64,000 nt of DNA from Trypanosoma brucei (taxonomy: Eukaryota), in NCBI GenBank assembly GCA_000002445.1, contig CM000207.1, forward strand, positions 1,248,001 to 1,312,000, given 5' to 3'. Numbering within the stretch: position 1 is the first letter of the stretch; every line of letters starts with the position of its first letter. Below are positions 1,017 to 24,760 of this stretch, in pieces. Below the pieces are notes generated by a model. That model saw only the letters and a list, made by a program, of their open reading frames with translations, did not search any database and was not told the origin of the DNA. A program made the position numbers and the translations under genes.

Positions 1017-1310
1017 TTATTGAGTTGGTTGCTGCTCACTTTGACACTGTGTAAAGATTTCCCATGCCCATTTACATGGTGCCGCATTGCCTTCATTTGC
1101 TTCCAAACATTTTGCATAAGTTTGGACATGAGCTGCACAGGCACCGTTACCAACTTGTTGTGCCACCTGTTGCAACTCAGTGGGTTGTGCAGGCGGGGCA
1201 TTGCGGTCGAAGAGCATATGTGAAATGCCGTGGCCAATGACGGAACCGGCTGCAACTGATGCCACATTTCCAAGGAGACCGCTACCCATTCCACCACGCA
1301 GCACGTACAC
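1017..1310 (-). CDS. CHCH-domain (twin Cx9C, CHCHD2/Mix17-like) protein, 5'-truncated array copy
   Basis: Gly-rich hydrophobic 'GGMGSGLLGNVASVAAGSVIGHGISHM' segment followed by CAAHVQTYAKC and CKWAWEIFTQC (two C-x9-C). The copy starts at MYVLRGG and lacks the N-terminal region of the terminal copy. Confidence 0.55.
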   Translation of the reverse strand: MYVLRGGMGSGLLGNVASVAAGSVIGHGISHMLFDRNAPPAQPTELQQVAQQVGNGACAAHVQTYAKCLEANEGNAAPCKWAWEIFTQCQSEQQPTQ

Positions 1311-2153
1311 ATTTGTTACCTGAGGTTGCGGTTGCTGAGCAGTTGTCTGGTGCGTGTTTTGATGCTGTTGTCGTGTGCCAAAGAAAATTATGAAATATAT
1401 CCAATAAGTGTTTCTGCAACGAATAAGTAAGGTTATGTGAAACTAAAACACATAAAAGGATCACTGCTTTCCATAGTTCCTGCATGAGCAGAGAATTGTT
1501 GGCACATAACATCTACTAACACTAGCCATACTGACAGCAACTTATTCCTCCTGCCCTCCATCCTTGCACACACACCTCACAGTAACCAGTAACACTTCAC
1601 AACTATTTTAAACATCTGGCTTATTGTCTCAACAAAAGTCAGAGGGTTAGTAACTTTCCTCGTGTCGCATGCGAGGTTGCTGCAAAATGCGAAGAGTTCC
1701 ACCTTATCGCACACACATATCAAATACAAAGAGTAATAATTAAGTAATGTCGCGTAACTGTTTTAGTTATAATTCAACGTGAAGTGTTACGGATCCTAAT
1801 TCCTTTCAGATTGGAAACCGCAAACCATACAGTCCTGCTTCTTGTTACAAGTCAAGTGGGACATGCTAATTGGATTCAACTTCAATTAATTCCGTCATTT
1901 GCAGGTAGCAATAACATCTATCCTAAGAATTGTTATTTGCATTTAAAGGGTGAAATTGAGTGCATTCAGATAAAACAAAATAAGACTCATAGCAACAGCA
2001 AAAAGAGACTCTTTAGGGTTTATGGCAAACACAATCAATGAACAAACACACTATACCATTAACACAATTAAATTCCAAATACTATAACACATGTATTCTG
2101 TTCCAAAAAGTTACAATAAGTATTATGGTAATCACATCATAAGATTATTCCGG

Positions 2154-3263
2154 TCAAATTAAAAAGCATAAAAATGAAATTAGAAGTGCAAATAGTTTTT
2201 CCATCATATCTACATTTTGGTTATAAGCATAAGCACCATCAAAGGGTTTCCTCCTCATGTAAGATAACATTGGTAGCAACATTGTATCATCAAGAAGGCA
2301 TTGCTCCCTCTGTGCTGCGGTAAGATTGAGCCATGAGTTTTCAAGATACATTTTGTCAAGTTCCGCCTTTACACTGGGAGTGCTGTAACATGTTTCGGCA
2401 GAGCAAGCGGTGCAACTGCGTTTCTTCATTCCTTCCTCAAAATTTCGTGTCAACGACTTTAACGTTTCCTTTAAGTCCTGGAGGGAAGCAAGTGCTGCAT
2501 TTATCCTTGTCTCTTGAGGACCGGCGATGTATTGCGTAATGTTTTTGTCGCATCGTTTCTTCTCCTTTGTGATGCTGGCTTGTTGTTCGTCAATATCTTC
2601 CTGTAGGCTCTCAATACTTGCACTCATTTCCTTTAATTTTGTAAGTTTATGATGGCATTTTCCGCTTTCCTCTTTCTTTTTGTCTTGTTCTCGTAGCACA
2701 GTGGCCACTTGATCTTCCTTCTTATTAAGTTCGATTTGCAAATCTGTAACTTTTTGTTTGTCCGCCCCCGTTTGGCTAGTTACTGTTATATTGCACAAAC
2801 CTCTTTTTTCTACTTCGTTTTGTAAAGGCTTGTTTTTCTCAACCAATTCATTTAGAGTTTTATCGTTGTCGCAGGTCCAAAGCTTAGGTTCCGTATCATG
2901 TTTCAGAGAATAGCAAAATATCCACGTTTTATCAACTTCAAAAAAATTTTCACTATTTGAAAAAAATCTCCTCCCGTAACCACTGTAATCATCTCCCCTC
3001 CACGTTACGTCACTGCATCGTTCATCACTTGCTCTCACAGTTAAGCAAAATATCAGCAACAATAATCCAAACAGTATTCGCATCTTCCTAATAATCTTAT
3101 AGCAGTTATCACGGAACAAAGCACGCATATATTTTTTCCATAAACACATTTGCATAAGAATAACCAAATTTACCATTAATGGAACAAAACCAACTGTACC
3201 GATTCGCAAAATGATATTATCATGATAATTAACTAACATGTATGATATCCATAAAAATTCCAT
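2154..3263 (-). CDS. Gene A (variant 1): secreted coiled-coil Cys-framework protein with C-terminal hydrophobic GPI-type signal. The likely true start is the Met at 3083 (MRILFGLLLLIFCLTVRA signal peptide).
   Basis: Long minus-strand ORF. Signal-peptide-like N-terminus, many N-x-S/T sequons, a conserved C-terminal module CSAETCYSTPSVKAELDKMYLENSWLNLTAAQREQCLLDD...MEKLFALLISFLCFLI, and a hydrophobic extreme C-terminus. Confidence 0.75.
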   Translation of the reverse strand: MEFLWISYMLVNYHDNIILRIGTVGFVPLMVNLVILMQMCLWKKYMRALFRDNCYKIIRKMRILFGLLLLIFCLTVRASDERCSDVTWRGDDYSGYGRRFFSNSENFFEVDKTWIFCYSLKHDTEPKLWTCDNDKTLNELVEKNKPLQNEVEKRGLCNITVTSQTGADKQKVTDLQIELNKKEDQVATVLREQDKKKEESGKCHHKLTKLKEMSASIESLQEDIDEQQASITKEKKRCDKNITQYIAGPQETRINAALASLQDLKETLKSLTRNFEEGMKKRSCTACSAETCYSTPSVKAELDKMYLENSWLNLTAAQREQCLLDDTMLLPMLSYMRRKPFDGAYAYNQNVDMMEKLFALLISFLCFLI

Positions 3264-3359: not shown

Positions 3360-4208
3360 TTACATGTTTTCATTATATTTTGAATTACTCTCCTCATTAC
3401 CCTCATGTGACACCCCGCATTTAACACCTGATTTTTTCCATCCATCTTTTCCATATAATTTATCCAAATTTTCCTTTATGTGCACATCATCCCAACAAGT
3501 CCCAGCGTCACATGCGGGACAATTATTATTTCCAAGTTTTTCCAGCTGTTGTTCCTTCAGCTCTATTGCTCTCTTAACGTATTGAATTTCATCTAAGACT
3601 TTCTCCAATCTCTCTTTGTAATTCCCCTCTGTCCATATTTTCCTGTTTTCACACTCTTTTTCTTCCTGTTTAAAAAGTGCATCCACTCGTTTTTTTTCAT
3701 CCTGAAGGCTCCTTACCTTGCCTTCGGAACCAGCCATTCTCCCAATATCCTCTTCGCACTGTTTCTTTTCTCGATCCACCTGTGTGCACGCTGCCCGAAG
3801 GCGCACAACTTCCTTGTCTTTCCCACCAATTCGCCCCCGTAGCTGTTCGGCTTCACGGTCTAGCTCCATCCGTCTCTCATGCACTTTCCTTTTACAAAAG
3901 GATATATCACCTCCACTACTCCAATTGAATCTGTTTGTAATGAGGTCTGTTGGTTGCTCATCGCTTGAAATATCACAAAGCCATAACATTTCATTTGCTC
4001 CACCTATTCTTTCGCTCCTGTTGCATATCATCCACTTATGATTTTTTACCAAGAGGTCATCATTAGCCTTCATCACAGCCACCTTATCATCAACCTCTCC
4101 ATCCTTTTGGATTCTAACACATTTGACAGCCTCCACCCTTTCTGTAAAAGCCAAAAACAATATCAACCCCGCCAAAGAAAAAAACATAAGTGTCCCATAC
4201 TCTTTCAT
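3360..4208 (-). CDS. Gene B (variant 1): secreted paralog of gene A without a C-terminal anchor signal
   Basis: Starts with the signal peptide MKEYGTLMFFSLAGLILFLAF. Coiled-coil middle. C-terminal module CPACDAGTCWDDVHIKENLDKLYGKDGW is homologous to the gene A module. Ends ...KYNENM with no hydrophobic tail. Confidence 0.75.
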   Translation of the reverse strand: MKEYGTLMFFSLAGLILFLAFTERVEAVKCVRIQKDGEVDDKVAVMKANDDLLVKNHKWMICNRSERIGGANEMLWLCDISSDEQPTDLITNRFNWSSGGDISFCKRKVHERRMELDREAEQLRGRIGGKDKEVVRLRAACTQVDREKKQCEEDIGRMAGSEGKVRSLQDEKKRVDALFKQEEKECENRKIWTEGNYKERLEKVLDEIQYVKRAIELKEQQLEKLGNNNCPACDAGTCWDDVHIKENLDKLYGKDGWKKSGVKCGVSHEGNEESNSKYNENM

Positions 4209-6804
4209 ATTGTTAGTTCACACTATATATCCTTCAAACACTTTCTTGTCCTTGTTAACAAATACATATACCCAAACCAAATGAAATAATAGCAACAGTG
4301 AGTGTTAACTATAGTGACAGCAGCTTCTTTTCTTACCTTACCTTACCTTACCGTGGCACTGAATCTGCTTCCTCATTGACACACGGCACAATGGCAAGAC
4401 ACAAATAAACTTAAAACTAAAAATTAACAAAAAATATATATGTGATCCAAATACAAAATAGGTACAACAACATGTGCATTCAAATGCAAACCTAACTCAG
4501 AAAAAATACACGAAATAAATGAACACATGTATTCCGATTAGCACACGCATATATGAATATCCTTTGTCAAAGTCAGTTAACAGTTTTTTCCCTTAGCAAT
4601 CCTTATTCCATCCCCGCATGTCTTAAATTCTATTTCCCACAGCCTACAACACATATCAGATGCGCTACCACTTCTATCCTAGTGCCACAAACTCACATTA
4701 ATCAAATTTCCTTCGTCACACCTCTTTCCTCTGCACGCAGTTAGAGTTCAACAAACGCAGCAGCATCATAACTCTAGAAATGCCGGTAATGCGATTAGTC
4801 TCAAGAACAAACAATTAATACTAACGGGCTGCATCTCTCACTACAATCCACATAACAACACACCCCATGAAATATGAGAACTTTTGGTGACATTATATCG
4901 TTTAGCATTTCCTACCAACATTCAAAAGGATTTGCCACACATCACAATTAGTTACTGTATATTATAAAGCATCGTGAAATGGTGTAGCAGTACGAGAAAA
5001 GGGGAGTCTCTAGTCCCTCTCCCGTAACTTCATCATTTCAATAAATGCTAACAGTATTCACGACCCCATACAAAAAACAAGGAACAACAACATATGGGAT
5101 ATTTTACTGAATCCCACTCTCTACACATCACAGTGTAACCTGAAATGCACTCTTCACTTCGAGCTGCAGTAAACATGATAATTCCCATAATGCTCAATGA
5201 AAAGATAACAGAAATATATAACATATGATAGGTAATACATGATATATATTCCAGCACTTTTGTTGCTATTCCCAGAGATTCAACATTTTAGGAAACAAAA
5301 TATACAGAATCAACATTACTCCAATTGTATCAGCCTAACAAGACACTGAATTGAGGAAATTGTGTGAAACTTAAGTACTGGAAATGCGAGATATCATAAA
5401 CATTCCACGATTGGACTCAATGAAAACAAATGCAATCTTAAAGTTAGTATAACTAATGCATGGAATGACTGGAATTGTTGGAAATGAAGAATTTAATATA
5501 ACTAAAAAAAAATAATAGTATTTTCATCCGATATGGGAGCAAATATGATAGAATACCACAACAGTAATCTCAGTAGTTGAGATGCCAATAACACAGTTAA
5601 GTCACAGTTGCAGCATAAACACTTCTGGAAAGACTCCATAAAGGGAAAGAAAACTAATCATATTTCGAAGACTCAATTAGGCGTGGAAGAGAAACGGCAA
5701 CTGGTACAAAATAAATGTAACTGCAGGAACGCAGTGACTCCAAGTGGACATAAACCTAAGGAACTGATGTGAAACCTCATCTCCTGAATCTTATTAGTAA
5801 TGTGTAAACAAAAAAAGAAAGCAAAGAATCATTACACTCAATGCTTCTGTCACTACATATTTTGAATGTTTGTAAGTAAGCTAAGCTATTATATTGTGCG
5901 TATATTTATATTTTTTCTTTCCTTACCAAAAGAGTAAGGAATAAGGAGAGCGTATTCAAAGGAAAGATACTGAAGTGTAGTAGTGAAAATAACAACTCTT
6001 GCAGCAACTGAAAGAGCAGTGAGGGCACAAATGAATATGCTCATGCAATGCCTTCAACTTCACGCACGTTTAGCATAATATGAGTTACAGAGGCATCACT
6101 TAGTAGAAAAAAATAATAAAGCGTGGAAAAATAAAAATAATAATAATAATAGTAATAGTGGTAATCGTAATACCAAAGAAAGAAAGAGGTTATAGGGGTG
6201 GCAATAATAGTAACAAATTTACTATATATGGAAAAGAAAGTGTCGTATTCTCGAAAGTAATAAAGAGAGTAGTAAGAAAATGAAGAAGTACAACACTGAA
6301 TATTTTACTGGTTGAAACTGATTCGAAGAGAGCATGATATCAATAGAGTTGTAGGTGCTTCTCAATTCAGTAAAATGGTTGCGGCCACACTAATATGTCT
6401 TCCCTCTCATGCACAAACTCTCCTTCCTTTCCTCTTTTTGTTTCTTACTCATATGCCTTCATTTCCATCTGATCTTCTTTATTCTCACATTTCTAAACCT
6501 TCACATCACTTCGTTACAAAATCACTCGAATCTCGAACTACCAGTTCTCATAAATGCACCATGTCGTGTAAAACTTTTCCATGAGACCAGAAAAAATATT
6601 GACAAGAGGAGTGATACAATCATTCACTGGTTAGAGGCCACACTCGCAACAATGGAAAGAAATAAATGAGAAGTAAAAAGAAGGACAAAGCGAAAAACAA
6701 ATTATAGGGAGACAGTAACTCTTCCATTTCTCCTCCATTGCCTCAATATATCTTTTTCTTTCCTTTGTCTCTACAAACATTTGCTCCTTTCCCATACTGA
6801 TAAT

Positions 6805-7182
6805 TTATTGAGTTGGTTGCTGCTCACTTTGACACTGTGTAAAGGTTTCCCATGCCCATTTACATGGTGCCGCATTGCCTTCATTTGCTTCCAAACATTT
6901 TGCATAAGTTTGGACATGAGCTGCACAGGCACCGTTACCAACTTGTTGTGCCACCTGTTGCAACTCAGTGGGTTGTGCTGGCGGGGCATTGCGGTCAAAG
7001 AGCATATGTGAAATGCCGTGGCCAATGACGGAACCGGCTGCAACTGATGCCACATTTCCAAGGAGACCGCTACCCATTCCACCACGCTGCACGTACACAT
7101 TTATTACCTGAGGTTGCGGTTGCTGAGCAGTTGTCTGGTGTGTGTTTTGATGCTGTTGTTGCGGCAACGTTTCATGTGCCAA
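6805..7182 (-). CDS. CHCH-domain protein, array copy with alternative N-terminus (MAHETLPQQQHQ...)
   Basis: Same twin Cx9C and Gly-rich region as the other copies. His/Gln-rich N-terminal extension. No MTS-like segment. Confidence 0.55.
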   Translation of the reverse strand: MAHETLPQQQHQNTHQTTAQQPQPQVINVYVQRGGMGSGLLGNVASVAAGSVIGHGISHMLFDRNAPPAQPTELQQVAQQVGNGACAAHVQTYAKCLEANEGNAAPCKWAWETFTQCQSEQQPTQ

Positions 7183-7954
7183 AGAAAATTAGGAAACACA
7201 TCCAATAAGTGCGTCTGCCACGAATATGTAAGGCTATGTGAAACTAAGACACATAAAAGGATCACTGCTTTCCATAGTTCCTGCATGAGCAGAGAATTGT
7301 TGGCACATAACATCTACTAACACTAGCCATACTGACAGCAACTTATTCCTCCTGCCCTCCATCCTTGCACACACACCTCACAGTAACCAGTAACACTTCA
7401 CAACTATTTTAAACATCTGGCTTATTGTCTCAACAAAAGTCAGAGGGTTAGTAACTTTCCTCGTGTCGCATGCGAGGTTGCTGCAAAATGCGAAGAGTTC
7501 CACCTTATCGCACACACATATCAAATACAAAGAGTAATAATTAAGTAATGTCGCGTAACTGTTTTAGTTATAATTCAACGTGAAGTGTTACGGATTCTAA
7601 TTCCTTTCAGATTGGAAACCGCAAACCATACAGTCCTGCTTCTTGTTACAAGTCAATTAGGACATGCTAATTGGATTCAACTTCAATTAATTCCGTCATT
7701 TGCAGGTAGCAATAACATCTATCCTAAGAATTGTTATTTGCATTTAAAGGGTGAAATTGAGTGCATTCAGATAAAACAAAATAAGACTCATAGCAACAGC
7801 AAAAAGAGACTCTTTAGGGTTTATGGCAAACACAATCAATGAACAAACACACTATACCATTAACACAATTAAATTCCAAATACTATAACACATGTATTCT
7901 GTTCCAAAAAGTTACAATAAGTATTATGGTAATCACATCATAAGATTATTCCGG

Positions 7955-8959
7955 TCAAATTAAAAAGCATAAAAATGAAATTAGAAGTGCAAATAGTTTT
8001 TCCATCATATCTACATTTTGGTTATAAGCATAAGCACCATCAAAGGGTTTCCTCCTCATGTAAGATAACATTGGTAGCAACATTGTATCATCAAGAAGGC
8101 ATTGCTCCCTGTGTGCTGCGGTAAGATTGAGCCATGAGTTTTCAAGATACTTGTTGTCAAGTTCCGCCTTTACACTGGGAGTGCTGTAACATGTTTCGGC
8201 AGAGCAAACACTGCAATTGTTTTTCTTTATTGCTTCCTCAAACATTTGTGTCGTCAAATTCAGCTGTTTCTTTAGGTCGTGGAGAGAAGCTTTTTTCTTT
8301 TTCAAGATTACTTTTTTGTGATTAGTGATATGATGTGTAATATTGTGATTGCATTGTTGCTTTACCTTCTCTATTTCATCTCTCTTTTCTCTGTTTGCTG
8401 TTTCGAGAGTTGCATTTGTTTGACTTTTGTCTCTTAACGTTTTTGGATCCTCGATACATGGTGGGTTTTTTTGCTTTGCTCCAGTGCTTTTTTTGTAATT
8501 TTCATTCTCGACCCCTAACTGCCGGAGTTTATCCTTCAATTTTTCAATTTTTTCTTTATGCACTCTTATTTGAGTTGCCACAGTACTGTCGCATAGATTT
8601 CCGCCCTCCACACTCTCTCGCAAAAGTTCGTGATTCTCGATTAAGTCTTTAAATGTTTTATCATTGCTACAACTCCAAACCTTTCCGCTTGTAAAATCAT
8701 TAGACGCATCGCAAAACATCCACTTTTTATCATTTCCAAAAAGTTTCTCCCCACCCTTCAAAACAAAACTCCTCGCATCATCGACGCCCTCCTCTCTGTA
8801 AACATCTTCCCTCTCTTTTATATAATAGCATGGATTATCATCCGCCCATATTGTTACGCAAGATATCAGCAACAACACTCCAAATAGTATTTGCATTTTT
8901 CTAATGCTCCTAGAGTAGATGATATGAAATAAAGCACGCGTATATATTTTCCATAACAC
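7955..8959 (-). CDS. Gene A (variant 2): GPI-signal-bearing coiled-coil Cys-framework surface-type protein. The likely true start is the Met at 8896 (MQILFGVLLLISCVTIWA).
   Basis: Conserved C-terminal module and hydrophobic tail. Cys framework: KKWMFC, W-C-NDKT, LCDST, QQCN, CSVCSAETCY. Sequons NATL, NHNIT, NLTT, NNCS. Confidence 0.75.
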   Translation of the reverse strand: MLWKIYTRALFHIIYSRSIRKMQILFGVLLLISCVTIWADDNPCYYIKEREDVYREEGVDDARSFVLKGGEKLFGNDKKWMFCDASNDFTSGKVWSCSNDKTFKDLIENHELLRESVEGGNLCDSTVATQIRVHKEKIEKLKDKLRQLGVENENYKKSTGAKQKNPPCIEDPKTLRDKSQTNATLETANREKRDEIEKVKQQCNHNITHHITNHKKVILKKKKASLHDLKKQLNLTTQMFEEAIKKNNCSVCSAETCYSTPSVKAELDNKYLENSWLNLTAAHREQCLLDDTMLLPMLSYMRRKPFDGAYAYNQNVDMMEKLFALLISFLCFLI

Positions 8960-9172
8960 ATTTGCATAAGAGTTACAGAATTCACGATTAACATGGCGAA
9001 ACCAATTTTACCGATTCATGAAATGATATTATAATGATAATTAACCAAAATGTATGATATCCATAAAAAAATCCATTATTATTTCACATAGTGGTAAGAA
9101 ACAACTGCTTAAACTGACAGATTAATAAGTAAGAAAAGATACAAACCCAACATATTTTATTTCCATAACTGT

Positions 9173-10048
9173 TTACATGTTTTCATTATATTTTGAATGA
9201 TTCCCTTCAGTATCTTCATGTGACACCCCACATTTACCTCCTGATTTTGTCCATCCATCTTTTCCATATAGTTTATCCAACTCTTCCTTTATTTTCACAT
9301 CATCCCAGCAAGCTTCAGCGTCACATGAGGGACACTTATTAATTCCAAGTTCTTCTAGTTGCTGTTCCTTTAGTTCTATTGCTTTCATAACATTTTTGAT
9401 TTCTTCATCAATTTTTTCAAGTTCAATATCGTATTCCTTTTCCATATTTCGCTTAATATTTTCACACTCTGTCATTTCCTTTTCAATAAGAGAGTTCATT
9501 CGAGCACCTTCATTTATGATGTTCTGTATCTTGGTATCAGTATCTGTTATTTTTTCTATCTGATCTTGGCATTCCTGCTTTGTCTCCTGTGCTTTTGCAC
9601 CCAATATCTCCAGGTTTTTATTTATCATATCTTGCTCCACAATTTTACTGCTCAGCTGTATCTCCTCATCCTTAATTCTTTGGATCTCTTCCAGCACCTT
9701 CTTTTTACAGGTAGTTACGCTGCTTACATCATTACTCCAATTGAATTTGTTAACGAGAGTTGTGGGTGTCCCATCAATAGAGGCGTCGCACATCCAAAAC
9801 ACTTTATTTGCTTCTCCCACCCTATTAGTGACGTTGCATATCATCCATTTGTGACGTCTACTCACGAAGTGATCACCATTTTCTATCACAGCCTCCATCA
9901 CTCCTTCCACCTCCTCCCTTCTCACCATACAGGTTTTGGCTTTCGACTCGCCAGTGAAAACCAACAATATCACTCCCGCCAATGATAAAAACATAAGTGT
10001 CCCATACTCTTTCATATTGTCACCTCGCATTATATATCCTTCAAACAC
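9173..10048 (-). CDS. Gene B (variant 2): secreted anchorless paralog. The likely true start is the Met at 10015 (MKEYGTLMFLSLAGVILLVF).
   Basis: Signal peptide, HKWMICNVTN...WMCDAS framework, long heptad-like coiled-coil, CPSCDAEACWDDVKIKEELDKLYGKDGW module. Confidence 0.75.
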   Translation of the reverse strand: MFEGYIMRGDNMKEYGTLMFLSLAGVILLVFTGESKAKTCMVRREEVEGVMEAVIENGDHFVSRRHKWMICNVTNRVGEANKVFWMCDASIDGTPTTLVNKFNWSNDVSSVTTCKKKVLEEIQRIKDEEIQLSSKIVEQDMINKNLEILGAKAQETKQECQDQIEKITDTDTKIQNIINEGARMNSLIEKEMTECENIKRNMEKEYDIELEKIDEEIKNVMKAIELKEQQLEELGINKCPSCDAEACWDDVKIKEELDKLYGKDGWTKSGGKCGVSHEDTEGNHSKYNENM

Positions 10049-10190
10049 TTTCTTGTCCTTACCATCAGATACACGTAAACAAAATGGAACAATAGCAACA
10101 GCGAGTGTTAATTATAGTGACAGCAGCTTCTTTTCTTACCTTACCTTACCTTACCGTGGCACTGAATCTGCTTCCTTATTAACATACTGC

Positions 10191-10245
10191 ACCATCTCAA
10201 GACAGAAAATTGATACTAAAAATTAACAAAAAGAACATAGATGTG
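10191..10245 (-). promoter_or_regulatory. T-rich polypyrimidine tract ~150 nt upstream of gene B (repeated in each array unit at 4380-4440, 15936-15990 and 21676-21730)
   Basis: The reverse complement reads catctatgttctttttgttaatttttagtatcaattttctgtcttgag. Confidence 0.45.
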
Positions 10246-23043: not shown

Positions 23044-24510
23044 ACCTCACCTCCTGAATCTTATTAGTAATGTGTAAACAAAAAAAGAAAGCATAGAATC
23101 ATTGCACTCAATGCTTCCATCATTGCATATTTTGAATGTTTGTAAGTAAGCTAAGCTATTATATTGTGCGTATATTTATATATTTTCTTCCCCTGGTAAA
23201 AGAGTAAGGAATGAGAAGAGCTTATTCAAGAAAAATACTGAAGTGTAGTGGTGAAAACAACAACTCTTGCAGCAACTGAAAGAGCAGTGAGCGTACAAAT
23301 GAATATGCTCATGCAATGCCTTCAACTTCACGCACGTTTAGCATAATGTGAGATACAGAGGCATCACTTAGTAGAAAAAAATAATAAAGTGTGGAATAAT
23401 AATAATAATAATAGTGGTAATTGTAATACCAAAGAAATAGAGGTTATAGGGGTGGCAATAATAGTAACAAATTTACTATATATGGAAAAGAAAGTGTCGT
23501 ATTCTCGAAAGTAATAAAGAGAGTAATAAGAAAAGGAAGAAGTGCAACACTGAATATTTTACTGGTTGAAACTGATTCGAAGAGAACATGGTATCAGTAG
23601 AGTTGTAGGTGCTTCTCAATTCAGTAAAATGGTTGTGACCACACAAATATGTTTTCCCTCTCATGCACAAACTCTCCTTCCTTTCCTCTTTTTATTTCTC
23701 ACTCATATGCCTTCATTTCCTTATCTTTTTCTTTGTTCTCACTTTTCTAAACCTTCACATCACTTCGTTACAAAGCCACTCAAATCTCGAACTACCAGTT
23801 TTGATAAATGCACCATGTCGAGTAAAACTTCCCCATGAGGACAGAAAACATGTTGACAAGAGGAGTGACATAATCATTCACTGGTTAGAGTCCACACTCG
23901 CAACAATGGAAAGAAATAAATCAGAAGTAAAACAACAAAGAGAAAAACAAATTATATGGAAACACCAGCTTTCCCATTCCTCTCTTATTGCCTCAATATA
24001 TCTTTCTTTCTTTCCTTTCTCCCTACAAACATTTGCCTCTTTCCTATACTGATAATTTATTGAGTTGGTTGCTGCTCACTTTGACACTGTGTAAAGGTTT
24101 CCCATGCCCATTTACATGGTGCCGCATTGCCTTCATTTGCTTCCAAACATTTTGCATAAGTTTGGACATGAGCTGCACAGGCACCGTTACCAACTTGTTG
24201 TGCCACCTGTTGCAACTCAGTGGGTTGTGCTGGCGGGGCATTGCGGTCGAAGAGCATATGTGAAATGCCGTGGCCAATGACGGAACCGGCTGCAACTGAT
24301 GCCACATTTCCAAGGAGACCGCTACCCATTCCACCACGCTGCACGTACACATTTGTTACCTGAGGTTGCGGTTGCTGAGCAGTTGTCTGGTGTGTGTTTT
24401 GATGATTATGTTGTTGTTGTTGATGTGGTGGTGGTGTTGTGCGTGCGGGTGAAGCCGCAGCGGCGGGGCGCGGAGATGAGGCTGAACGACGAGTGCGAGC
24501 CATTTTTGCG
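23044..24510. repeat. Terminal partial array unit (spacer + intact CHCH gene); array/unique-sequence junction near 24,420-24,510
   Basis: Homology to the first ~1.4 kb of each unit ends inside the CHCH ORF N-terminal coding region. Sequence beyond is unique. Confidence 0.8.
24057..24503 (-). CDS. CHCH-domain (CHCHD2/Mix17-like) protein, full-length terminal copy with Arg/Ala/Pro-rich N-terminus (MTS-like)
   Basis: 148 aa: MARTRRSASSPRPAAAASPAR..., a His/Gln-rich linker, the Gly-rich helix, then two C-x9-C motifs. The N-terminal 30 codons are unique sequence outside the repeat. Confidence 0.7.
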   Translation of the reverse strand: MARTRRSASSPRPAAAASPARTTPPPHQQQQHNHQNTHQTTAQQPQPQVTNVYVQRGGMGSGLLGNVASVAAGSVIGHGISHMLFDRNAPPAQPTELQQVAQQVGNGACAAHVQTYAKCLEANEGNAAPCKWAWETFTQCQSEQQPTQ

Positions 24511-24727
24511 AATATCTTACGGAAAACCTTTTTTTTTTACCGGTTAGGGATAAATATATCACTTGTGAGCACTTAATTTTCTGCGGAAATGTTTACCCCG
24601 TGTTCCCAATTAATGAAGAAAGCATGGACAACTGTGTGTGAAGTAGTTGTGGGTGGGGAGTGTCGACCAGTGTCGTTTCGCCAAAGCAGTTACGTGCATG
24701 TGCGAAAATTAGTAAATAATTATGTTG

Positions 24728-24732
<5 letters not shown>

Positions 24733-24760
<28 letters not shown>
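24733..24760. repeat. (TA)14 microsatellite
   Basis: Direct reading of the sequence. Confidence 0.95.

What the first reader, a model, noticed from the sequence alone, without database searches (positions are those of the whole stretch)
24057..24560. The array boundary falls inside a CHCH-domain gene: the terminal copy keeps an MTS-like N-terminus, while internal copies are 5'-truncated with heterogeneous N-termini
The terminal copy (148 aa) starts MARTRRSASSPRPAAAASPARTTPPP (Arg-rich, presequence-like) and its first ~30 codons are unique DNA. All four internal copies lose this and start at different points (MAHETLPQQQHQ..., MYVLRGG..., MQRGGMG...). The duplication that created the array therefore had a breakpoint inside this ORF. 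The internal copies keep the complete twin Cx9C module and Gly-rich helix, so they are either pseudogene fragments carried along with the array or expressed presequence-less isoforms of a CHCHD2/Mix17-like intermembrane-space protein. In either case they date and orient the amplification.
Basis: seen in the sequence. Interest (0 to 1): 0.6.

Follow-up and report, generated by a model that had tools for sequence, protein, structure and literature searches.

The report
Truncated gene copies in known array
A published five-unit tandem duplication of surface-protein genes on Trypanosoma brucei chromosome 9 started inside a small mitochondrial (Mix17/CHCHD2-like) gene, so each extra unit carries a headless copy of it; this is most likely a harmless by-product.

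Summary
The window is T. brucei TREU927 chromosome 9. The 148-aa twin-Cx9C gene (24057-24503, minus strand) is Tb927.9.7980. Four further copies lack the first ~33 codons.

The "heterogeneous N-termini" are not real. All four internal copies share one junction. The different starts come from TTG/GTG codons, a 13-nt insertion in c2 and a stop in c4. The first in-frame ATG is the same in every copy (M59, 90 aa) and lies 23 nt after an out-of-frame ATG.

The same junction, including a 62-nt filler, occurs in T. b. equiperdum and in one read-archive contig. T. vivax has the gene with no array.

The N-terminus (MAR.RR...) is conserved across Trypanosoma and in fungal and protist homologues, so the upstream ATG is genuine. 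In yeast Mix17 this segment is not a classical presequence.

The array itself is published (Jackson 2010, Fig. 2; Carnes 2015). GenBank already annotates two internal copies as 90-aa CDSs. The truncation and the CHCH identity were not noted there.

Substitutions specific to internal copies look unconstrained (9 nonsynonymous : 5 synonymous). Strain-specific variants shared between the full and internal copies point to gene conversion.

Best reading: incidental pseudogene fragments. Interest is low.

The parts
24057..24503 (-). Full-length CHCH gene (148 aa) = Tb927.9.7980 / Tb09.211.0040 / Q38EF7. It is the parental copy and sits at the transcriptionally upstream end of the array.
   Evidence: ORF. 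Exact sequence found as EAN76813.1/Q38EF7. Q38EF7 = Tb927.9.7980 in the Peikert 2017 supplements.
24405..24503 (-). Unique 5' part of the CDS (codons 1-33). It encodes the conserved basic N-terminus MARTRRSASSPRP... and a poly-Gln/His tract, and is absent from all internal copies. The breakpoint lies in or next to the (CAA)n tract, roughly 24405-24425.
   Evidence: DNA alignments; anchor positions; N-terminus conservation.
18304..18651 (-). Internal truncated copy c4 (homology block, codon 34 to stop). In-frame ATG at 18576 (90-aa ORF 18304-18576); out-of-frame ATG at 18599; in-frame stop codon at 18655-18657, just upstream of the block.
12563..12910 (-). Internal truncated copy c3. The 90-aa ORF 12563-12835 is the GenBank CDS EAN76807.1. 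It carries S81T and G105C; G105 is nearly invariant among the Trypanosoma homologues aligned.
6805..7152 (-). Internal truncated copy c2. The 90-aa ORF 6805-7077 has the sequence of GenBank CDS EAN76804.1. A 13-nt insertion just upstream of the junction creates the spurious TTG-start ORF 'MAHETLPQQQ'.
1017..1364 (-). Internal truncated copy c1 (90-aa ORF 1017-1289; carries T136I). The A and B genes of this fifth unit lie beyond the left edge of the window.
   Evidence: Five repeats are reported in PMC2854126.
18660..18720 (-). The ~62-nt junction-specific stretch between the end of the post-B sequence and the start of CHCH homology. The other copies are at 12918-12979, 7175-7233 and 1372-1433. 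It contains a short pyrimidine tract (TTTTCTTT) whose first downstream AG is exactly at the junction.
   Evidence: Present at the internal junction of T. b. equiperdum and in Logan contig L005 (58/62). Absent from the distal flanks of T. b. gambiense and T. b. equiperdum.
20636..21508 (-). Gene A of unit 5 (290 aa, 'T. brucei spp.-specific protein', signal peptide plus coiled coil). Paralogues in the window: 14918-15793, 9173-10048 and 3360-4208. Together with B this is the likely selected cargo of the duplication.
   Evidence: Units are 63-100% identical in this CDS. PMC2854126.
19443..20378 (-). Gene B of unit 5 (311 aa, predicted GPI-anchored; the Tb09.211.0010 family). Paralogues: 13700-14704, 7955-8959 and 2154-3263.
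   Evidence: PMC3378594; PMC2854126.
25269..25721 (-). Ubiquitin-conjugating enzyme E2 gene. It is the conserved upstream neighbour of CHCH in T. brucei, T. vivax, T. melophagium and T. cruzi, and serves as the synteny anchor.
   Evidence: Pfam UQ_con 158 bits; synteny.

Best explanation
A segment running [3' two-thirds of the CHCH gene - its downstream intergenic region - gene A - gene B - ~720 nt after B] was duplicated in tandem. This happened between the CHCH gene and the conserved 200-aa gene downstream of it.

The 5' breakpoint fell in or next to the CAA-repeat tract at codons ~29-33 of the Mix17/CHCHD2-like gene Tb927.9.7980. The 3' breakpoint fell downstream of gene B. The two ends were joined through ~62 nt of DNA whose origin is unknown.

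Later unequal recombination changed the number of units: 5 in TREU927 and 2 in T. b. equiperdum.

The selected cargo is the rapidly diverging A/B pair of predicted surface proteins. The headless CHCH copies are passengers. They lack the start codon and the conserved basic N-terminus, so they are most likely non-functional fragments.

They remain 96-99% like the parent for two reasons. They inherited a slowly evolving coding sequence, and they keep exchanging sequence with the functional copy by gene conversion.

Shown: the anatomy, the single shared junction, the conserved N-terminus and the synteny. Inferred: passenger status, gene conversion and lack of function.
For: - One identical junction is present in all four internal copies. 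The same junction and filler occur in T. b. equiperdum and in a Logan contig.
- T. vivax has UBC-CHCH-200-aa gene with no A/B.
- T. b. equiperdum has exactly two units followed by the same distal flank as T. b. gambiense.
- A and B are T. brucei-specific: the search with gene A returned five hits, all T. brucei. They diverge to 63-70% between units, while the CHCH block stays at 96-99%.
- Synonymous divergence in the CHCH block (0.04-0.12) is comparable to substitution divergence in the flanks (0.04-0.2). The high identity therefore reflects few nonsynonymous changes, not a younger age.
- Changes private to internal copies number 9 nonsynonymous: 5 synonymous. This is compatible with neutrality (p=0.33). 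They include L64P and G105C at positions nearly invariant among the Trypanosoma homologues aligned.
- Changes that involve a full-length copy number 2:7 (p=0.0007 against neutrality).
- Strain-specific variants are shared by the full and internal copies of the same genome (nt 6, 12, 18 and 144 of the block). This indicates concerted evolution.
- In every internal copy the first ATG after the junction is out of frame, 23 nt before M59.
- A genome-wide Cx9C motif search of TriTrypDB 8.1 lists only Tb927.9.7980 from this region.
- Yeast Mix17 lacking residues 1-24 imports at 20% efficiency and fails to insert into the outer membrane (PMC12045630).
- The array is published as a three-gene, 5729-bp, 5-copy segmental duplication (PMC2854126; PMC4288722).
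Against: - Every internal copy keeps an intact 90-aa ORF with both Cx9C motifs and no frameshift or internal stop.
- Pairwise pN/pS between internal copies is 0.1-0.4. This could reflect selection on the copies themselves rather than gene conversion.
- Twin-Cx9C proteins can generally reach the intermembrane space without an N-terminal signal.
- The junction filler supplies a pyrimidine tract and an AG that could serve as a trans-splice site.
- GenBank annotates two of the copies as CDSs.
- No transcript or peptide data specific to the internal copies could be examined.
Confidence: 0.7

Rival explanations
1. The internal copies are expressed. They would be trans-spliced at the junction AG and translated from M59 into 90-aa Mix17-like proteins without the N-terminus. 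These would enter the intermembrane space through the Erv1-dependent pathway. The result would be strain-specific extra dosage or a topologically different isoform (soluble in the IMS rather than exposing an N-terminus at the outer membrane).
For: - Intact 90-aa ORFs with a complete hydrophobic helix and twin Cx9C are present in all four TREU927 copies and in the T. b. equiperdum copy.
- Pairwise pN/pS between internal copies is 0.1-0.4.
- The junction has a pyrimidine tract followed by an AG.
- The full-length protein is Erv1-dependent: ratio 0.27 on ERV1 RNAi.
- The two peptides implied by the 29.7% coverage would fit the shared C-terminal region (my arithmetic). On that reading the published mass spectrometry cannot exclude a contribution from internal copies.
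- Yeast Mix17 lacking residues 1-24 is still imported at 20%.
Against: - An out-of-frame ATG lies 23 nt upstream of M59 in every copy.
- Substitutions private to internal copies are 9N:5S and hit nearly invariant residues (L64P, G105C).
- The low pairwise pN/pS is explained by gene conversion from the constrained full copy, as shown by the strain-specific variants they share.
- The copies are absent from the TriTrypDB 8.1 Cx9C list.
- Copy number varies from 1 to 5 among strains.
Confidence: 0.17
2. The conserved CHCH block is retained because it functions as DNA or RNA, not as protein. It could be the best-matched homology tract that mediates expansion, contraction and gene conversion of the A/B array. 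Alternatively it could be part of the RNA-processing region that sets polyadenylation of B and trans-splicing of A.
For: - It is the most uniformly conserved block of the unit: 96-99% in every pair, against 63-96% in the 3'UTR/intergenic region, the A and B coding sequences and the A-B spacer, and as low as 75% in the post-B segment.
- Unit number differs between strains (5, 2, 1).
- The T. b. gambiense unit is a mosaic of the two T. b. equiperdum unit types.
- A crossover within the shared 3' part would leave the full-length gene intact (inference).
Against: - Synonymous sites in the block diverge about as fast as the flanks, so there is no sign of constraint at the nucleotide level.
- Other blocks are equally conserved in some pairs (the C-terminus of B and the post-B region).
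- The role would be a consequence of the duplication, not a selected function.
Confidence: 0.1
3. The internal copies are the older form and the terminal copy gained its N-terminus secondarily. Equivalently, the upstream ATG is spurious.
Against: - The MAR.RR...RP..AAPPPA N-terminus is conserved in T. congolense, T. vivax, T. cruzi, T. theileri, T. melophagium and T. conorhini.
- Fungal and protist homologues carry M[PG]R(S/R)...RPAP.
- Species without any array have the full-length gene.
Confidence: 0.01

Closest known systems
The published chromosome 9 three-gene segmental duplication of T. b. brucei TREU927 (Tbg972.9.4160/4140/4130; the 'Tb927.9.7950/7960 repeat'). Sources: Jackson et al. 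2010 PLoS NTD, Table 1 and Fig. 2 (PMC2854126); Carnes et al. 2015 (PMC4288722).
   Same: It is the same locus. The paper reports a 5729-bp unit with 3 genes and 5 copies. The first CDS is nearly invariant (distance 0.015), while the second and third CDSs are highly divergent (0.488 and 0.409). One unit is reported in T. b. gambiense DAL972 and in T. evansi STIB805. My unit lengths are 5741-5788 bp, with five CHCH copies.
   Different: The paper calls the first CDS 'a putative secretory protein' and says 'all copies are identical'. Here it is shown to be the twin-Cx9C, Mix17-like mitochondrial protein Tb927.9.7980. Four of the five copies lack codons 1-33 and differ from the parent at 1-4% of sites. 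The junction, its 62-nt filler and the two-unit array in T. b. equiperdum are not described there.
Yeast Mix17 (formerly Mic17) and human CHCHD2/CHCHD10
   Same: The architecture matches: a basic, Ser/Pro/Ala-rich N-terminus starting M-x-R, a conserved Gly/Ala-rich hydrophobic helix, and a single C-terminal twin Cx9C. Dewar 2022 (PMC9034290) reports an HHpred similarity of Tb927.9.7980 to yeast Mic17. The abundance of the protein depends on Erv1.
   Different: Trypanosomes lack Mia40. No localisation or topology data exist for the trypanosome protein. The Pfam CHCH score is below the gathering cut-off (21.6 against 27.2 bits). I did not align it directly with a named Mix17 or CHCHD2 sequence.
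Partial (truncated) gene duplicates produced at the edges of tandem segmental duplications. This is general knowledge of duplication mechanisms, not tested against a named catalogue.
   Same: The parent gene is intact at one end. Every further unit starts with the same 5'-truncated fragment. There is one shared junction, containing filler DNA.
   Different: Here the fragments keep an intact downstream ORF with an internal ATG. They are also kept close to the parent by gene conversion.

Membership tests
CHCHD2/CHCHD10/Mix17 family | A single C-terminal twin Cx9C (CHCH) hairpin | tested here: met
   C109-x9-C119 and C130-x9-C140 are read from the ORF. The same positions appear in Peikert Supp. 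Data 9b. The Pfam CHCH match covers residues 109-142 but scores 21.6 bits, below the 27.2 cut-off. A profile of the Trypanosoma homologues hits the CHCHD5 structure 2lql only weakly (E=0.005).
CHCHD2/CHCHD10/Mix17 family | A conserved central Gly/Ala-rich hydrophobic helix upstream of the CHCH domain | tested here: met
   NVASVAAGSVIGHGISHMLF aligns with SVAVGSTIGHGISHMLF of the fungal homologue P0020. Identity is 38% over 87 aa, E=4e-14. The helix is invariant across the Trypanosoma homologues.
CHCHD2/CHCHD10/Mix17 family | A basic N-terminal segment beginning M-[APG]-R and rich in R/S/P/A | tested here: met
   MARTRRSASSPRP in T. brucei. M1, R3 and R5 are nearly invariant in Trypanosoma. Fungal and protist homologues begin MPRSSRSSRPAPRP or MGRRGGARPAPSR.
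CHCHD2/CHCHD10/Mix17 family | Significant sequence or profile similarity to a named member (yeast Mix17, human CHCHD2/10) | not tested
   No named reference sequence was returned by the tools. The only support is from the literature: HHpred similarity to yeast Mic17 (PMC9034290).
CHCHD2/CHCHD10/Mix17 family | Intermembrane-space or outer-membrane location with disulfide-relay-dependent import | not testable with these tools
   Literature only. Tb927.9.7980 is marked as part of the ATOM40-dependent importome and falls to 0.27 on ERV1 RNAi (p=0.04, 2 peptides). The L. tarentolae homologue LtaP04.0660 was found in Erv redox interactomes. Dewar 2022 instead states that it was not detected in the importome.
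Classical cleavable matrix-targeting presequence (MTS) | Net positive charge and no acidic residues | tested here: met
   The first 26 residues contain 5 Arg and no Asp or Glu.
Classical cleavable matrix-targeting presequence (MTS) | An amphipathic helix | tested here: not met
   There are 6 prolines in the first 26 residues. The helical hydrophobic moment over 18 residues is 0.16. This is a crude calculation, not a trained predictor.
Classical cleavable matrix-targeting presequence (MTS) | Membrane-potential-dependent import and cleavage | not testable with these tools
   In yeast Mix17, import is independent of the membrane potential and the N-terminus stays exposed to the cytosol (PMC12045630). 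This is an analogy only.
Non-functional partial gene duplicate (pseudogene fragment) | Loss of the start codon and 5' coding region through one shared rearrangement junction | tested here: met
   The junction is identical in c1-c4, in T. b. equiperdum and in L005.
Non-functional partial gene duplicate (pseudogene fragment) | Relaxed selective constraint compared with the parent | tested here: inconclusive
   Private changes in internal copies are 9N:5S (omega ~0.53; p=0.33 against neutrality). Changes involving full-length copies are 2N:7S (omega ~0.08; p=0.0007). Fisher's test between the two classes gives p=0.09. Pairwise pN/pS is 0.1-0.4 but is confounded by gene conversion.
Non-functional partial gene duplicate (pseudogene fragment) | No mRNA or protein product | not testable with these tools
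   No RNA-seq, spliced-leader-trapping or copy-specific peptide data were available. Indirect evidence only: an out-of-frame ATG precedes M59, and the copies are absent from the TriTrypDB 8.1 Cx9C list.

The most novel reading that the evidence does not exclude
The four internal copies are translated from M59 into Mix17-like proteins lacking the N-terminus that, in yeast, is needed for outer-membrane insertion. TREU927-type strains would then carry a soluble intermembrane-space isoform, or a dominant modifier, of a conserved Erv1-dependent protein. One- or two-unit strains (T. b. gambiense, T. evansi, T. b. equiperdum) would have little or none of it. The outcome would be strain-specific variation in mitochondrial intermembrane-space biology riding on a surface-protein gene amplification.
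Probability: 0.12. Interest if true: 0.45.

Novelty: already known. Interest (0 to 1): 0.2.

Why it matters
There are three practical points.

1. Annotation. The TREU927 record treats the internal copies inconsistently: two are annotated as 90-aa 'conserved hypothetical' CDSs and the others are not annotated. The 2010 description of this locus ('putative secretory protein, all copies identical') is inaccurate.

2. Reagents and assays. Anyone using RNAi, tagging, CRISPR or proteomics on Tb927.9.7980 in TREU927-derived lines should know about the four near-identical 3' fragments. They can absorb RNAi triggers, act as donors for repair or gene conversion, and share the likely detectable tryptic peptides. 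Tb927.9.7980 is a Mix17/CHCHD2-like protein whose Leishmania homologue is under discussion as an Erv partner.

3. Array history. The shared junction is a convenient single-origin marker for tracing this copy-number-variable surface-protein array across Trypanozoon strains.

None of this changes current understanding of trypanosome biology.

Tried and rejected
- **Source genome look-up.** Exact look-ups of the window's CHCH protein and of gene A in the contig index found nothing. TREU927 is not indexed there, so the distal end of the TREU927 array could not be read. I used T. b. equiperdum instead.
- **Origin of the 62-nt filler.** I looked for it in the window, in 4.6 kb of T. b. gambiense distal flank and in the T. 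b. equiperdum distal flank. It occurs only at internal junctions. Its origin is unresolved. A poly-T run at the point where T. b. gambiense diverges suggested a reverse-oriented retroposon, but I had no reference ingi/RIME sequence to test this.
- **Nucleotide-level constraint.** I first thought the 96-99% identity of the CHCH block against 81-96% in the flanks meant constraint on the DNA or very recent homogenisation. Synonymous-site divergence turned out to be similar to flank divergence, so I dropped that reading.
- **T. b. gambiense as the pre-amplification state.** I rejected this as unsafe. Its single unit is a fine mosaic of the two T. b. equiperdum unit types. That fits either a collapse by recombination or a collapsed assembly.
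- **RNA families.** Rfam scans of the window, the T. b. gambiense distal flank and the T. melophagium array found nothing.
- **TbMic17.** I could not establish whether Tb927.9.7980 is the MICOS subunit 'TbMic17'. Kaurov 2018 is not held in the library, and the reviews give no gene ID. I make no such claim.
- **Solved structures.** The PDB sequence search gave only a weak CHCHD5 hit.
- **Structure prediction.** Not run; it would not bear on the question.
Full report
**What the window is.** All genes of interest lie on the minus strand, so transcription runs from high to low coordinates. Gene A of the array is 100% identical to a T. b. brucei TREU927 protein. The 148-aa ORF at 24057-24503 is exactly EAN76813.1 / XP_827143.1 / UniProt Q38EF7 of TREU927. 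Q38EF7 is Tb927.9.7980 (old ID Tb09.211.0040, 15.754 kDa) in the Peikert et al. 2017 supplements. The window is therefore T. brucei TREU927 chromosome 9.

**Checking the observation.**
- The ORF is as described. An in-frame stop lies 11 codons upstream of the ATG.
- Five copies of its 3' part occur 5.74-5.79 kb apart.
- Alignment of the five loci shows near-identity from the motif CATCAAAAC (window 24404 = CDS nt 100 = codon 34) to the stop and beyond. Upstream of that point there is no similarity. 'First ~30 codons unique' is therefore correct.
- The breakpoint sits at the 3' edge of the CAA/CAG (poly-Gln) tract. A few bases of ambiguous microhomology are visible when the T. b. gambiense allele is used as reference.
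- The twin Cx9C (C109/C119, C130/C140) and the Gly/Ala-rich helix are complete in all copies.

**The 'heterogeneous N-termini' are an artefact.** Reading the frame back from each stop gives the following:
- c1 and c3 are open for 141 codons without any ATG before M59.
- c2 has a 13-nt insertion that shifts the upstream frame.
- c4 has a stop just upstream.

In all four copies the first in-frame ATG is the same, M59 (MGSGLLGNV..., 90 aa). GenBank annotates exactly this ORF for c2 and c3 (EAN76804.1 and EAN76807.1). An out-of-frame ATG lies 23 nt upstream of M59 in every copy. No other ATG lies between it and the junction, except one further out-of-frame ATG in c2 created by its 13-nt insertion.

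**Anatomy of the junction.** Upstream of each truncated copy lies the sequence that follows gene B of the preceding unit. Comparison with T. b. gambiense DAL972 (locus L001) is informative. That assembly has one A-B unit followed by unique DNA and a conserved 200-aa gene. Its homology to the array's post-B sequence ends at ...TTTCACATA (window 18721). This is ~62 nt before CHCH homology begins.

Those 62 nt (ACCTTACTTATTCGTTGCAG...TTTTCTTTGGCACACG) are found only at internal junctions:
- in all four TREU927 junctions;
- in the internal junction of T. b. equiperdum;
- in a 1.1-kb Logan contig, L005 (58/62 matches).

They are absent from the distal flanks of T. b. gambiense and T. b. equiperdum, which diverge from the array at the same point. 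So there is one junction of single origin, built as [post-B] + [62-nt filler of unknown origin] + [CHCH codon ~33 onward].

**Related loci.**
- T. vivax has UBC - CHCH - 200-aa gene - mitochondrial carrier, with no A/B. This is the state before the array existed.
- T. b. equiperdum, read from two overlapping loci, has exactly two units: CHCH(full)-A-B-junction-CHCH'-A-B-distal flank-200-aa gene.
- T. b. gambiense DAL972 shows one unit. That unit is a fine mosaic of the two T. b. equiperdum unit types, with 99-100% blocks switching at least five times. It is therefore either a recombinational collapse of a longer array or a collapsed assembly, and is not a safe ancestral state.
- T. melophagium has an unrelated ~855-bp tandem array of at least 10 copies. 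It starts 1.26 kb downstream of its CHCH orthologue.

**Is the upstream ATG real?** Yes. The N-terminus MAR(T/S/A)RR...(R/H)..AAPPPA is conserved in T. congolense, T. melophagium, T. conorhini, T. vivax, T. cruzi and T. theileri, all with proteins of 140-148 aa. More distant homologues from fungi and other protists begin MPRSSRSSRPAPRP... or MGRRGGARPAPSR.... The condition that would have refuted the finding is not met.

**What the gene is.**
- The architecture is that of the Mix17/CHCHD2/CHCHD10 family: basic N-terminus, conserved hydrophobic helix, single twin Cx9C.
- A fungal homologue aligns at 38% identity over 87 aa, E=4e-14.
- Dewar et al. 2022 report an HHpred similarity of Tb927.9.7980 to yeast Mic17.
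- Pfam support is sub-threshold: CHCH 21.6 of 27.2 bits and DUF2076 28 of 38 bits.
- Peikert et al. 2017 list the protein as a predicted MIA substrate and mark it in the ATOM40-dependent importome. It drops to 0.27 on ERV1 RNAi (p=0.04, two peptides, 29.7% coverage).
- Dewar et al. say it was not detected in the importome, so the sources conflict.
- Its L. tarentolae homologue was recovered in Erv redox interactomes.

**Is the N-terminus a presequence?** By composition it looks like one: five Arg and no acidic residue in the first 26 residues. It also has six prolines and a low helical moment. For yeast Mix17, import does not depend on the membrane potential. The N-terminus remains exposed on the cytosolic face of the outer membrane. 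Deleting residues 1-24 lowers import to 20% and abolishes outer-membrane insertion (PMC12045630). By analogy only, a 1-58 deletion in the trypanosome protein would be imported poorly and would have a different topology.

**Evolution of the copies.**
- Across seven units (four from TREU927, one from T. b. gambiense, two from T. b. equiperdum) the CHCH block is 96.0-99.4% identical in every pair.
- By comparison, the adjacent 3'UTR/intergenic region is 81-96% identical, the A CDS 63-100% and the B CDS 64-100%.
- This is not constraint at the nucleotide level. Synonymous divergence in the block (0.013-0.116) is mostly indistinguishable from substitution-only divergence in the flanks. Nonsynonymous divergence is low (0.004-0.030).
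- Sorting variable sites by who carries them gives two classes. Changes private to internal copies number 9 nonsynonymous and 5 synonymous (omega ~0.5, p=0.33 against neutrality). They include L64P in the conserved helix and G105C, both at positions nearly invariant among the aligned Trypanosoma homologues. Changes involving a full-length copy number 2 and 7 (omega ~0.08, p=0.0007). The contrast between the classes is suggestive only (Fisher p=0.09).
- Four sites (block nt 6, 12, 18 and 144) separate strains but are shared by the full and internal copies within a strain. With a single-origin junction, this is the signature of gene conversion between the functional gene and its fragments.
- Gene conversion also explains the low pairwise pN/pS without selection on the fragments.

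**Could the fragments be expressed?** The filler contains a short pyrimidine tract whose first downstream AG is at the junction itself, so trans-splicing there is conceivable. The first AUG of such an mRNA would be out of frame (102-109-aa ORF in c1-c3, 49 aa in c4), and M59 follows 23 nt later. The Peikert genome-wide Cx9C search of TriTrypDB 8.1 returns only Tb927.9.7980 from the Tb927.9.78xx-79xx range. The fragments were therefore not in that protein set. The 29.7% coverage equals 44 residues. That fits the two tryptic peptides NAPP...YAK (31 aa) and CLEANEGNAAPCK (13 aa), both in the shared region. This is my arithmetic, not a reported result. If it is right, existing mass spectrometry does not discriminate between the full gene and the fragments.

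**Prior knowledge.**
- The array is Table 1 and Fig. 2 of Jackson et al. 2010: Tbg972.9.4160/4140/4130, a 5729-bp unit with 3 genes and 5 repeats. The first CDS is described as a 'putative secretory protein, all copies identical'. The second and third CDSs are described as transmembrane and GPI-anchored and as highly divergent.
- Carnes et al. 2015 call it the Tb927.9.7950/7960 repeat and find one unit in T. evansi STIB805.
- Savage et al. 2012 list the B genes as predicted GPI-anchored proteins with low expression.
- None of the text I read mentions the 5' truncation, the CHCH/Mix17 identity or the junction.

**Verdict.** The structural observation is correct and its main inference, a breakpoint inside the ORF, is well supported. 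The heterogeneity claim is wrong. The locus is already published and partly annotated. The truncated copies are best read as incidental passengers of a surface-protein gene amplification, kept similar to their parent by gene conversion (confidence ~0.7). Expression as N-terminally truncated isoforms is not excluded (~0.17). Interest is low. The value is mainly as a correction to the annotation and the literature, and as a caution for experiments on Tb927.9.7980.

Noticed in passing
L001 (T. b. gambiense) 10100-15860, compared with L004+L006 (T. b. equiperdum): The single A-B unit in the DAL972 assembly is a fine mosaic of the two T. b. equiperdum unit types. Blocks of 99-100% identity switch at alignment columns ~600, ~2400, ~4000, ~4400 and ~5600. 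This means either a recombinational collapse of a longer array or a chimeric, collapsed assembly. 'Single copy in T. b. gambiense' should not be taken as the ancestral state.
   Followed up: partly
L002 (T. melophagium) 11698-20441: A different tandem array begins 1.26 kb downstream of the CHCH orthologue. Units are ~855 bp, at least 10 copies, ~99% identical. Each has a 65-aa ORF that looks like a signal peptide (MYAVSVHRAVLAMFFCALLCLQLAAAQQ...). There is no Rfam match. The same intergenic site has hosted independent lineage-specific arrays.
   Followed up: partly
window 24044-24352 (-); also 1004-1312, 6771-7100 and 12550-12858; L003 10128-10442: A +1-frame ORF of 102-109 aa (MCTCSVVEWVAVS...) overlaps almost the whole shared part of the CHCH CDS. 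It starts 23 nt before M59. T. vivax has an equivalent 104-aa ORF starting MCTCS. This is probably a compositional accident, but it is the first AUG any junction-spliced mRNA would meet.
   Followed up: partly
window 12911-18651 compared with 7153-12910: Units U4 and U3 have identical A and B coding sequences (100%) but differ in the CHCH block (98.0%) and in the first kilobase downstream of it. This indicates a very recent duplication or conversion within the array whose boundaries do not coincide with the unit boundaries.
   Followed up: partly
L001 15850-15870 and 17300-18250; L006 7957-8370: The distal flank of the array in T. b. gambiense and T. b. equiperdum starts with a T15 run exactly where homology to the array stops. 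It contains a GC-rich stretch with a called 137-aa ORF. Jackson 2010 mentions an ingi-mediated insertion next to the duplication. I could not test retroposon identity because I had no reference sequence, and there is no Rfam hit.
   Followed up: partly
L007 (T. cruzi) 8445-16444: No gene is called, and no homologue of the conserved 200-aa gene is found, in the 8 kb downstream of the T. cruzi CHCH orthologue. Synteny downstream of CHCH is therefore not conserved outside the African trypanosomes examined.
   Followed up: no
L001 19840-20442; L003 11796-12398: The 200-aa gene downstream of the array is extremely conserved: 91% identity between T. brucei and T. vivax, 89% to Leptomonas, and homologues in many metagenomes. 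It has no Pfam domain. By size (22.986 kDa) and position it is probably Tb927.9.7830, which the Peikert tables list among mitochondrial membrane proteins.
   Followed up: partly
window 24735-24760: A (TA)13 microsatellite lies about 230 nt upstream of the CHCH start codon, in the UBC-CHCH intergenic region.
   Followed up: no
Literature: PMC5436138 against PMC9034290: Peikert 2017 Supp. Data 9 marks Tb927.9.7980 as part of the ATOM40-dependent importome. Dewar 2022 describes it as 'not detected in the importome'. The discrepancy is unresolved.
   Followed up: no
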